Shown in pieces: positions 37,976 through 40,106 of a DNA stretch of 44,209 nucleotides. A program made the position numbers and the translations under genes. The notes under the pieces were generated by a model. It did no database searches. It was not told the DNA's origin and worked only from the letters and a program-made list of their open reading frames with translations. Where the stretch lies: UHGV virus genome UHGV-0377591. The stretch is one strand, 5' to 3'. Source of the DNA: a virus. How positions within the stretch are numbered: position 1 is the stretch's first letter; every line of letters begins with the position of its first letter.

Positions 37976-38416
37976 TTATCCTAATAGTTGTTTGGTAATA
38001 ATCTTGCCGCCGTTGTTGGTGTCGAACTTCGATGCAACGGCTACGCCACCATGTGCCGAATACTCACATTCCATGGCCGCTAGTGCATAGGGTGCGCCAG
38101 ACCCAACGGCGGCAAAGCTATCGGCAACAGGAATAACAGAACTTAGTGCGCAATCCCATGATTTATAAAACGCGACTTTATACACCTTTTCTGTGTCTTT
38201 CACAAACACCAGGGCTTCGAAATCGAAGTCATAGTGCTTAGGCACTAAAATTCCCCGGTCACCAACGAGAATATCCCCTACCCCAGCATCGCCAGCGACC
38301 CCAATGACAGCGAAATAATTCTCGTATATCTTGGTATCTGTGTTGTAGCAGTTACTTCCGCACACAACACGGGTGTCACAGGCCATCGTCTTTCCGTCGA
38401 ACGCGATAGTAGTCAT
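37976..38416 (-). CDS. HslV / proteasome-beta-like N-terminal nucleophile hydrolase, 146 aa
   Basis: Thr right after the start Met (MTTIAFDG); AVIGVAGDAGVGD and AAVGSGAPYALAA blocks parallel bacterial HslV as recalled; GGAG ribosome-binding site. Confidence 0.6.
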   Translation of the reverse strand: MTTIAFDGKTMACDTRVVCGSNCYNTDTKIYENYFAVIGVAGDAGVGDILVGDRGILVPKHYDFDFEALVFVKDTEKVYKVAFYKSWDCALSSVIPVADSFAAVGSGAPYALAAMECEYSAHGGVAVASKFDTNNGGKIITKQLLG

Positions 38417-38706
38417 TTGCGTCTCCAGATGTATTGTCGTCTCTGCGGTTTCGTCGGAATATCATCGTATCCCAGCGATTTCCAGTAATTAAATAGCCGA
38501 TTAGCGATAGCGGCGCGCTCCTTTGTTTTAAACTCACCGAGATTCACGGCCTTCCCGTTCTGGAATCCACAGGCGCGGACCGCTTTGCGTCTGGCCTGAA
38601 TCTCAGGGTACATCGCGTTACCCCGACGCTTGTATATCCGGGTGTTCGCTCTCGGCGACAGCGGCGCAAGGCCGCTTCGTTCCAGGATGTCAGTTGCGAG
38701 GCTCAT
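38413..38706 (-). CDS. Hypothetical basic protein, 97 aa
   Basis: Start moved to ATG 38706 (ATGA coupling; the track start is TTG). Confidence 0.45.
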   Translation of the reverse strand: MSLATDILERSGLAPLSPRANTRIYKRRGNAMYPEIQARRKAVRACGFQNGKAVNLGEFKTKERAAIANRLFNYWKSLGYDDIPTKPQRRQYIWRRK

Positions 38707-38897
38707 ATTCCGAGAATCTCGCGGGCCATTTCTTCTGTAACTTTCGAACAAGGTGCGTACATTACCTGTTCGGCGAATTCACGTAACTTTGCTTCAAGTT
38801 TCAGATAAGCGTCGTATTCTACATAATCGCCGTATGCATACTCAGCCATCTCAGGCTCTGGCAGACCCCACGCTTTTACCTCATATCTCTGCACCAT
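38703..38897 (-). CDS. Small hypothetical protein (paralog A), 64 aa
   Basis: Start moved to ATG 38897 (TGATG coupling). Shares YVEYDAYLKLEAKLREF with paralog B. Confidence 0.5.
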   Translation of the reverse strand: MVQRYEVKAWGLPEPEMAEYAYGDYVEYDAYLKLEAKLREFAEQVMYAPCSKVTEEMAREILGI

Positions 38898-39079
38898 CAA
38901 TCCACCCCTTCCACATGTGTAACCGACCCACAGTTCGCGCACTCGACGTAATCCGGAAACTGGTCTTTGTATTTCTGTAACTCGGCTTCGAGTTTCGCGT
39001 AGTCTTCATAACTTACGTACTCCCCGTTTACTTTGCTATCGAAGTGGCCATCTTCATAAAAGCCTTTGCGAACAGCCAT
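38897..39079 (-). CDS. Small hypothetical protein (paralog B) with C-terminal CxxC, 60 aa
   Basis: ORF track; YVSYEDYAKLEAELQKY; ends ECANCGSVTHVEGVD. Confidence 0.5.
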   Translation of the reverse strand: MAVRKGFYEDGHFDSKVNGEYVSYEDYAKLEAELQKYKDQFPDYVECANCGSVTHVEGVD

Positions 39080-39081
39080 AA

Positions 39082-39285
39082 TTATCTCTCCTGTTTACCA
39101 AGTCGCTTAGGTGAGCAGATAGCGCGTACCTCTGAATCGTTGGGCTTGTCGCCCTGAAACAGGAAGTGCGCGTTCTCTGCGGCGCGTGCCGCTGACTGGC
39201 ACGCCTCCATCGAGTAAAACGTTTCTGATGCCGCCAGTTGCATCTGGCCTGCGGTAAGTGTCCAGATAAATAAGATGCTGGTCAT
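39082..39285 (-). CDS. Small protein with N-terminal hydrophobic segment, 67 aa
   Basis: Start moved to ATG 39285 (ATGA coupling); begins MTSILFIWTLTAGQMQLAAS. Confidence 0.45.
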   Translation of the reverse strand: MTSILFIWTLTAGQMQLAASETFYSMEACQSAARAAENAHFLFQGDKPNDSEVRAICSPKRLGKQER

Positions 39286-39620
39286 TTCTTTAGTCCGCAT
39301 ATTCTGCACATCATTGCGGAAGGTGACTTACGACTCCCAACGAATCGCCAGTGATGGGAACATTCCGACGTATCCCCCTTGCAGCAACCAGATTGCTCGG
39401 ACACTTGCGCGCACTTGCGGATAAGTTTGTACGCCTCCACGTCACCTGTAGCCAACGCCTTATGCAACTCCTTAATATGTTCTGACGCATCACGTAACTG
39501 ATTCTTGAGTGACAACACCTCGTGCGCCAGGTCTTCGCACTGTTGCTTGTACGGGCTGTTGTTCACCTGCTGCCGTAGTTGGTCGATCAGGTACTCGAAT
39601 ACTTCGTTTTTGTTACTCAT
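39282..39620 (-). CDS. Hypothetical protein with Cys-rich C-terminus, 112 aa
   Basis: ORF track; C-terminal CCKGDTSECSHH…CRIC. Confidence 0.5.
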   Translation of the reverse strand: MSNKNEVFEYLIDQLRQQVNNSPYKQQCEDLAHEVLSLKNQLRDASEHIKELHKALATGDVEAYKLIRKCAQVSEQSGCCKGDTSECSHHWRFVGSRKSPSAMMCRICGLKK

Positions 39621-39763
39621 CAGCTACCTCCAGTTCGCCGTAAACATGCTCGTTGTCGCCGCTGCATACACTGCAAACTCGCAACTCAGCATAAAGCTGT
39701 TCCAGTTTCTCAACCGTCAGATACTTATACATCTTCCGTCTCTCCTCTCGTTTGTGTAAATGA

Positions 39764-40024: not shown

Positions 40025-40060
40025 AAATGAGAAAAATGATACGCTGCTGTGTAGCAGCGT
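40025..40060 (-). terminator. Rho-independent terminator
   Basis: Perfect 8-bp stem ACGCTGCT-GTGT-AGCAGCGT (40041-40060) followed on the minus strand by a T-rich run. Confidence 0.6.
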
Positions 40061-40106
40061 AAGTCACTCAGTAAAATCTTAAACTATTGACCTGTTACAC
40101 CACCTG

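What the first reader, a model, noticed from the sequence alone, without database searches (positions are those of the whole stretch)
38703..39079. Tandem paralogous small genes in the accessory operon
Adjacent, translationally coupled ORFs (38703..38897 and 38897..39079) share a core: GDYVEYDAYLKLEAKLREF versus GEYVSYEDYAKLEAELQKY. The second carries a C-terminal CxxC. Tandem duplication followed by divergence in an accessory region is a common signature of genes under host-driven selection.
Basis: seen in the sequence. Interest (0 to 1): 0.4.

Follow-up and report, generated by a model that had tools for sequence, protein, structure and literature searches.

The report
Tandem paralogous, module-shuffled small phage genes
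Two adjacent 60- and 64-residue genes of this E. coli phage are true relatives of each other, but they belong to a family of unknown function whose front and back halves are swapped between related phages, so they are not a simple local duplicate pair.

Summary
On the minus strand, B (39079..38897, 60 aa, with CANC) and A (38897..38703, 64 aa) overlap by one base (TGATG). They are homologous: BLASTP E=2e-7, Smith-Waterman 72 against 23.5±4.5 in 20,000 shuffles, and hhalign 98.6% over 51 columns.

The window is a Kagunavirus, about 95% identical to phage Schulenburg. The shared part is a ~40-residue N-terminal domain absent from Pfam: M-V-x-R-Y, a variable 10-25 residue loop, then G-x-Y-V-x-Y-E-D-Y-x-x-L-E-A. 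It occurs in 343 protein clusters carrying many different C-termini.

In Kagunaviruses, the slot between two conserved genes holds 0, 1 or 2 family genes (7, 19 and 12 of 38 contigs). N-modules and C-modules recombine combinatorially, and all four combinations of the window's own modules exist elsewhere. One relative has a crossover inside the shared core. Another lacks exactly gene A.

Within modules selection is purifying (dN/dS 0.05-0.16), and no positive selection was shown. Function is unknown. B is not a Lar-family member, because its Pfam score is below threshold. My best guess is dispensable, acidic, probably oligomeric accessory proteins that bind a host or defence factor. This is an ordinary kind of phage mosaicism in an undescribed small domain.

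The parts
38897..39079 (-). Gene B, 60 aa: divergent MVxRY-type N-domain, a helix, then the 'c1' C-module with a single CxxC
   Evidence: ORF. phrog_29624 at E=1.5e-28. 373 homologues, all from roughly 44-kb Kagunavirus-like contigs. AF2 has low confidence (pLDDT 53) and predicts helix 24-40 plus hairpin 44-55.
38703..38897 (-). Gene A, 64 aa: canonical MVQRY N-domain plus the 'c2' helical-hairpin C-module
   Evidence: ORF. The ATG at 38897 is taken as the start because nearly all homologues begin MVQRY. 42 homologues. AF2 pLDDT is 75, with helices 28-47 and 52-62 above 90.
38969..39025 (-). Shared core in B (GEYVSYEDYAKLEAELQKY, residues 19-37)
   Evidence: This is the most conserved part of the wider family.
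38775..38831 (-). Shared core in A (GDYVEYDAYLKLEAKLREF, residues 23-41); recombination junction seen in relatives
   Evidence: In L019 the alignment to window 39285..38987 and the alignment to 38831..38415 overlap by 39 nt exactly at the core.
38900..38983 (-). c1 module of B (ELQKYKDQFPDYVECANCGSVTHVEGVD); the CxxC codons are at 38930..38941
   Evidence: 23 invariant and 4 nearly invariant of 28 columns among 41 sequences. dN/dS 0.07 at dS 0.34. Only sub-threshold Lar_restr_allev similarity.
38706..38789 (-). c2 module of A (KLREFAEQVMYAPCSKVTEEMAREILGI)
   Evidence: Conserved among 20 sequences. Confident helix-loop-helix in AF2. hhalign aligns PCSKVT with NCGSVT of c1.
38895..38912 (-). 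Coupling junction: SD-like GGAAGGGG (38912..38905) inside B's last codons, then the TGATG stop/start overlap (38899..38895)
   Evidence: Sequence. The same 1-nt overlap is found in all 16 distinct tandem pairs examined.
39087..39092 (-). SD-like AGGAGA, 7 nt upstream of B's ATG
   Evidence: Sequence.
39082..39285 (-). Conserved upstream flank of the slot: small phrog_3766 protein with a hydrophobic N-terminus
   Evidence: E=2.2e-34. Present next to the slot in nearly all related contigs.
38413..38706 (-). Conserved downstream flank of the slot: basic 97-aa phrog_9632 protein whose start overlaps A's stop (ATGA)
   Evidence: E=6.5e-53. pI 11. Used as the anchor for the unbiased copy-number sample.

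Best explanation
A and B are two full-length paralogues of a small, acidic protein family of Kagunavirus-type phages. Each consists of three parts. (i) A ~40-residue N-terminal domain: M-V-x-R-Y, a loop of 10-25 residues that differs completely between alleles, then [D/E]-G-x-[Y/W/F]-V-x-Y-E-D-Y-x-x-L-E-A, which starts a helix. (ii) An optional coiled-coil insert. (iii) An exchangeable C-terminal module. In B this is a highly conserved knuckle with one CxxC. In A it is a helical hairpin that keeps only one of the Cys residues. The genes occupy a dispensable slot between two conserved genes, in a translationally coupled operon that continues into the lysis cassette. Shown: the pair is old, not a recent local duplication, and the family diversifies mainly by recombination between co-circulating phages. 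The crossovers lie in the conserved core (the ...YEDYAKLEAEL-coding stretch) and at the conserved stop/start junctions, so N- and C-modules are reassorted and whole genes are gained or lost as cassettes. Inferred, not shown: the proteins act as small oligomeric accessory factors that bind a host or host-defence component. On this reading the conserved helix and C-module provide oligomerisation or the effector contact, the variable N-loop provides specificity, and B's lone CxxC would need a second chain to complete a zinc site.
For: Paralogy. The genome is a Kagunavirus and the genes are conserved as 'hypothetical proteins'. Wider N-domain family: a profile search found 343 clusters at E<=1e-3, and the distant ones match only profile positions 1 to about 43 at their own N-terminus, on proteins of 39-306 aa. 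Four of the listed sequences I read carry two copies (P0187, P0188, P0194, P0236). Combinatorial modules. All four N x C combinations of the window's modules exist: B-N/c2 in L019 and A-N/c1 in P0052, P0056 and L026. DNA junctions: L019 equals the window without roughly 38986..38832, with the crossover in the core; L003 lacks exactly 38894..38702, which is gene A; L026 joins A's N-module (95% identity) to B's c1 module (92%). Slot occupancy is 0/1/2 in 7/19/12 of 38 anchor-selected contigs. Of the tandem pairs, 15 of 16 have c1 first, all have a 1-nt overlap, and the partners' N-loops are at most 33% identical. Purifying selection within modules at dS 0.34-0.49 shows they are real proteins. 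The family is acidic, median pI 4.46. The helix and hairpin architecture comes from AF2.
Against: No functional evidence of any kind. There is no significant Pfam, NCBIfam, PADLOC or PDB sequence hit and no fold match with E<1. The N-domain is predicted with low confidence, so the strand-loop-strand picture of it is an inference from the sequence pattern. Oligomerisation, zinc binding and target binding are untested. The genes lie in the same operon as the holins and endolysin, so a role in lysis timing or another late function cannot be excluded. The dN/dS values come from regex-selected sequences and are biased low. The copy-number sample is from IMG/VR contigs, some of which are near-duplicates.
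Confidence: 0.7

Rival explanations
1. One reading: a local tandem duplication in this lineage, followed by point-mutational divergence driven by host selection.
For: The two proteins are homologous over about 51 columns, including the C-terminal Cys region, so an ancestral duplication did occur. One N-module cluster has a 6-codon loop tip with dN 0.46 against 0.02-0.03 in the flanks.
Against: The cores are only about 70% identical at DNA level. The same c1-first, non-c1-second arrangement occurs in many relatives with different partners. Modules reassort. dN/dS is below 1 everywhere it was measured.
Confidence: 0.15
2. B is a Lar-type zinc-ribbon restriction-alleviation protein, and A is a degenerate copy of it.
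For: There are weak but recurrent hits of the c1 module to PF14354 and phrog_3592: B at E=0.082 and 0.0074, and C-terminally extended relatives up to 23.3 bits, E=7.7e-5. Parts of phrog_3592 also match the N-domain.
Against: All scores are below the Pfam gathering threshold of 28.6 bits. Only model positions 14-38 align in B. B has one CxxC, not two knuckles. The PHROG label is an annotation, not an assay.
Confidence: 0.1
3. The proteins serve the lysis or late programme of the phage, for example by regulating the holins, the HslV-like peptidase or the neighbouring basic protein, rather than host takeover.
For: They are in the same coupled gene chain as the HslV-like peptidase, two holins and the endolysin. 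Terminator-like hairpins occur only upstream at 40061..40040, and downstream of the endolysin in Schulenburg.
Against: The slot is empty in 7 of 38 relatives that keep the lysis genes. Extreme allelic diversity is unusual for a partner of conserved phage proteins.
Confidence: 0.1
4. The similarity is a chance or low-complexity (coiled-coil) artefact, or the ORFs are not genes.
For: The proteins are short and the shared part includes a charged helix.
Against: 0 of 20,000 shuffles reach the score. HMM and HHalign hits are reciprocal. There are hundreds of conserved homologues with dN/dS far below 1 at dS of about 0.35.
Confidence: 0.01

Closest known systems
PHROG phrog_29624 (unknown function)
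   Same: B matches it end to end (E=1.5e-28). Relatives with other N-modules also match.
   Different: It is only a sequence cluster with no function attached. A matches it only at E=0.054.
Lar restriction-alleviation family (Pfam PF14354; phrog_3592 'Lar-like')
   Same: Small phage or prophage protein with a Cys knuckle. Recurrent weak alignment of the c1 module to the middle of the model.
   Different: Scores are below threshold and only half of the model is covered. B has a single CxxC. B also has an N-terminal domain and helix that PF14354 (58 positions) does not include.
Ea22 / Ead / EaE-type accessory proteins of lambdoid and P22-like phages
   Same: The layout is the same. Ea22 is described as a short N-terminal domain, a coiled coil and a C-terminal domain, and is tetrameric (PMC10834534). 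It is an early, non-essential and sequence-diverse gene (PMC7093339). Distant carriers of the MVxRY N-domain have C-terminal parts that match HK97 gp37 and genes annotated 'Ead/Ea22-like' or 'EaE'.
   Different: A and B have no Ea22-type C-terminal domain and no direct sequence match to these proteins. They are 60-64 aa, belong to a virulent siphophage, and lie in the lysis operon.
T7 Gp5.9-type small acidic inhibitors (DNA mimics), named from my own knowledge
   Same: Small and strongly acidic (pI about 4.5), with a helix likely to pair.
   Different: Neither A nor B matches phrog_9014. Only the neighbouring 112-aa ORF does, at a non-significant E=0.032. This is a resemblance only.

Membership tests
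   Smith-Waterman 72 against 23.5±4.5, with 0 of 20,000 shuffles reaching it. BLASTP E=2e-7. hhalign 98.6%.
   About 70% DNA identity in the core. Each module is 90-95% identical to modules placed differently in other phages.
phrog_29624 | Significant full-length HMM match | tested here: met
   B: E=1.5e-28, residues 12-60. A: only E=0.054, so A itself is not a member by this test.
Lar_restr_allev (PF14354) | Score at or above the Pfam gathering threshold (28.6 bits) | tested here: not met
   B scores 13.6 bits. The best extended relative, P0083, scores 23.3 bits.
Lar_restr_allev (PF14354) | Complete zinc ribbon with two Cys knuckles (feature named from my own knowledge of the family) | tested here: not met
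   B has one CxxC (C47, C50). The alignment covers only model positions 14-38 of 58.
Lar_restr_allev (PF14354) | Alleviation of type I restriction | not testable with these tools
   Needs plating assays.
Ea22 / Ead-like | Short N-domain, coiled coil and Ea22-type C-terminal domain (PMC10834534) | tested here: not met
   A and B end after a short helix plus a 28-residue module. Neither gave a hit to phrog_368, 492 or 614, whereas distant N-domain carriers do.
New 'MVxRY' N-terminal domain family (defined here) | N-terminal M-V-x-R-Y ... G-x-[YWF]-V-x-Y-x-D-Y-x-x-L-E motif detected by the family profile | tested here: met
   Both A and B are in the seed alignment. 343 clusters are retrieved, and the distant ones match only through this domain. 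No Pfam or NCBIfam model covers it.
Known anti-phage defence components (PADLOC) | Significant HMM match | tested here: not met
   No hit for A. B's best hit is E=0.022, 12 bits, to a methyltransferase model.

The most novel reading that the evidence does not exclude
The ~40-residue MVxRY domain is an undescribed scaffold that displays a variable loop. On this reading, Kagunaviruses keep a population-level combinatorial library (at least 30 N-loops times at least 5 C-modules, in one or two expressed copies per genome) of small acidic binders directed at host defence or takeover targets. The slot would then be a miniature anti-defence island whose diversity is generated by recombination at a conserved ~40-nt core.
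Probability: 0.2. Interest if true: 0.65.

Novelty: new member of a known kind. Interest (0 to 1): 0.4.

Why it matters
If the functional guess is right, this slot would be a compact natural example of how virulent phages diversify small host-interaction proteins. They would do it by reassorting sub-gene modules of 20-30 codons rather than by point mutation. The MVxRY domain, found in 343 clusters and absent from Pfam, would deserve a family definition and a structure. In practical terms, the result corrects a start-codon annotation in a reference phage. It also warns that 'tandem paralogue' signals in phage accessory regions may reflect old, recombining gene families rather than recent duplication. 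As it stands the function is unknown and the phenomenon, mosaic accessory genes, is familiar.

Tried and rejected
1. Structure-based annotation led nowhere. The AF2 model of B is too poor to search (pLDDT 53). The model of A is a generic helical hairpin, and Foldseek against PDB and BFVD found nothing with E<1.

2. A PDB sequence-profile search gave only chance-level hits.

3. Pfam, NCBIfam and PADLOC scans of A, B, their neighbours and ten long distant relatives found no family above threshold.

4. Lar membership was considered because of the weak hits, and rejected because the scores are sub-threshold and the ribbon is incomplete.

5. I looked for a third family member in the window. There is none. 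The 112-aa ORF at 39282..39620 reaches only E=0.48, although chimeras with it exist elsewhere.

6. The positive-selection test on a hypervariable loop tip gave dN/dS 0.22 with saturated dS, so it is not evidence for positive selection.

7. Literature searches for Kagunavirus variable regions and for the peptide motifs found nothing relevant.

8. Cluster look-ups and one genomic context look-up for distant relatives gave only unnamed small genes.

9. A diversity-generating retroelement origin of the variable loop was considered unlikely, because loop lengths vary from 10 to 25 residues. I did not test it formally.

Full report
**What is there**

The window is a Kagunavirus (Guernseyvirinae) E. 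coli siphophage. Region 38300-39700 is about 95% identical to Escherichia phage Schulenburg, and 304 phage records match it.

The two ORFs of the finding lie on the minus strand:
- B runs 39079..38897 (60 aa).
- A runs 38897..38703 (64 aa).
- B's TGA and A's ATG overlap as TGATG. An SD-like GGAAGGGG lies 7 nt upstream of A's ATG, inside B's last codons.
- B has its own AGGAGA 7 nt upstream of its ATG.
- A's stop in turn overlaps the ATG of the next gene (ATGA).

The pair is part of a chain of coupled small genes. The chain starts after a terminator-like hairpin at 40061..40040 and runs on through an HslV-like peptidase, two holins and the endolysin.

**Is the similarity real?**

Yes.
- BLASTP gives E=2e-7.
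- The Smith-Waterman score is 72, against 23.5±4.5 (maximum 54) in 20,000 shuffles of both sequences.
- HMMs built from each protein's own homologues find the other protein at 6e-8 and 1.5e-8 among all window ORFs, and find nothing else.
- Profile-profile comparison gives 98.6% probability over 51 columns. The alignment runs from the N-terminus to the Cys of both C-termini, pairing NCGSVT with PCSKVT.

At DNA level the cores are only about 70% identical, with many synonymous differences. Conservation is therefore at protein level, and the duplication is old.

**What the shared part is**

Homologues of B (373 proteins) and of A (42 proteins) all come from roughly 44-kb Kagunavirus-like contigs and carry no Pfam domain. 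Their sequences show a modular plan:
- MVQRY at the N-terminus;
- a segment of 10-25 residues that is unalignable between alleles (about 31 types at 55% identity);
- [D/E]-G-x-[Y/W]-V-x-Y-E-D-Y-A-K-L-E-A-E-L;
- an optional coiled-coil insert flanked by a repeated LEAEL;
- one of several C-modules.

The C-modules are:
- c1, ELQKYKDQFPDYVECANCGSVTHVEGVE, as in B. It has 23 invariant and 4 nearly invariant columns out of 28.
- c2, KLREFAEQVMYAPCSKVTEEMAREILGI, as in A.
- At least three further kinds.
- Sometimes an extra C-terminal C-x-H-x-W...C-x-x-C-G extension.

A profile of the family was searched against 1.84 billion representative proteins. It found 343 clusters at E<=1e-3. The distant ones match only profile positions 1 to about 43, always at their own N-terminus, on proteins of 39-306 residues. 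Four of the listed sequences I read contain the domain twice.

This domain has no model in Pfam, NCBIfam or PADLOC. In other phages the C-terminal parts of some carriers match HK97 gp37 and genes annotated 'Ead/Ea22-like' or 'EaE'.

**How the pair relates to other phages**

I used the conserved downstream gene as an unbiased anchor. Of 38 Kagunavirus-type IMG/VR contigs, 7 carry no family gene in the slot (6 have the flanking genes abutting), 19 carry one, and 12 carry two. None carries three.

Among 16 distinct tandem pairs:
- 15 have a c1-type gene first and a non-c1 gene second;
- all share the 1-nt stop/start overlap;
- the two partners never carry the same N-loop (at most 33% identity).

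Modules reassort. Ten N-module types occur with two or more C-module types. All four combinations of the window's own modules exist: B-N/c1 and A-N/c2 here, B-N/c2 as the single gene of L019, and A-N/c1 in P0052, P0056 and L026.

The DNA junctions are sharp:
- L019 matches window 39285..38987 (91%) and 38831..38415 (88%), and the two alignments overlap by 39 nt exactly at the core. This is the product expected from a crossover between the two cores, or its reverse.
- L003 lacks precisely 38894..38702, which is gene A from start codon to start codon.
- L026 joins A's N-module (95%) through an insert to B's c1 module (92%).

Phages that share one first-position allele carry quite different second genes, or none.

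**Selection**

Within each module type, dN/dS is 0.05-0.16 at dS 0.34-0.49, similar to the conserved flanking gene at 0.03. The sequences were selected by regular expression, so dN is biased low.

In eight alleles of the 'SNNGFCV' N-module, six loop-tip codons have dN 0.46 against 0.02-0.03 in the flanks. But dS is also saturated there, and dN/dS is 0.22. This is a local peak of old divergence, not demonstrated positive selection.

**Structure and function**

- AF2 models A with two confident helices (28-47 and 52-62, pLDDT above 90) and an unconfident N-domain.
- AF2 models B poorly (pLDDT 53), as a helix followed by a short hairpin carrying the CxxC.
- Foldseek and a PDB profile search gave nothing significant.
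- The family is uniformly acidic, with median pI 4.46.
- The c1 module gives recurrent but sub-threshold hits to the Lar restriction-alleviation zinc ribbon. B scores 13.6 bits and extended relatives up to 23.3 bits, against a threshold of 28.6. B covers only half the model and has one CxxC. I therefore do not file B as a Lar protein.

**Most likely explanation**

Two points are shown. A and B are old paralogues of a modular family. The family diversifies by recombination at the conserved core and at the gene junctions, within a dispensable slot.

The function is inferred, at roughly 30% confidence. The proteins would be small, acidic, oligomerising accessory factors that bind a host or defence component. 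The invariant helix and C-module would serve as the constant part and the N-loop as the variable part. B's single CxxC would complete a metal site only between chains.

The main rivals are:
- a Lar-like anti-restriction role;
- a role in the lysis or late programme, suggested by the operon context.

**Comparison with what is known, and novelty**

The closest named entities are:
- phrog_29624, a cluster of unknown function. B is a member.
- The Lar family. Membership was not met.
- The Ea22/Ead class of early accessory proteins. The three-part layout and the diversity are the same (PMC10834534, PMC7093339), but membership was not met.

Mosaic accessory genes and tandem paralogues are a familiar kind in phages. 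Three things are new here: the definition of the N-terminal domain, the sub-gene scale of the shuffling, and the 0/1/2-copy slot. I rate it as a new member of a known kind, with interest 0.4.

Noticed in passing
window 38897..38942 (-); Schulenburg MK931438 gene 069: The reference phage annotates the A homologue from an upstream GTG (79 aa, overlapping B by 46 nt). The family alignment (nearly all members start MVQRY) and the SD-like GGAAGGGG at 38912..38905 point to the ATG at 38897 as the start.
   Followed up: yes
window 39282..39620 (-): This 112-aa ORF (phrog_6094) is a coiled coil plus a C-terminal C-x-H-x-W...C-x-x-C-G module. The same module is the optional C-extension of c1-type family members. 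Chimeras also exist between this gene and the family: P0159 is its N-part plus c2, and P0183 and the second gene of L097 are a family N-domain plus its C-part. A third gene of the window therefore takes part in the module exchange.
   Followed up: partly
window 37976..38416 (-): An HslV-family peptidase-like gene (phrog_1040, E=3.5e-32; Pfam Proteasome only 16 bits) sits directly upstream of two holins and the endolysin, in the same coupled gene chain.
   Followed up: no
window 38413..38706 (-): A very basic (pI 11) 97-aa protein, phrog_9632, is conserved in nearly all relatives and immediately follows the variable slot. It has no Pfam or NCBIfam family, and more distant versions (30-39% identity) occur in related ~40-44-kb viral contigs.
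   Followed up: partly
L037 2173..2418; L048 1715..2020; L058 2286..2504; L101 580..735: In some relatives the same slot also holds unrelated small genes (81, 101, 72 and 51 aa). The slot is therefore a general insertion hot spot, not one reserved for this family.
   Followed up: no
P0187, P0188, P0194, P0236 (distant relatives; P0188 is in a Wifcevirus-like 68-kb contig, L096 4001..4582): Some distant relatives carry two MVxRY domains in one polypeptide. P0188 lies in a long chain of coupled small genes with no recorded Pfam hit.
   Followed up: partly
L063 2172..2504: A 110-aa single gene in which c1 is cut after ...QFPDYV and continues as KLELKLRRLAKRV...PCDWKT...ILDL, a c2-like module. This looks like a crossover between c1's 'PDYVE' and the 'GDYVE' of a following gene's core. 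The same weak internal resemblance appears as the second BLASTP segment.
   Followed up: no
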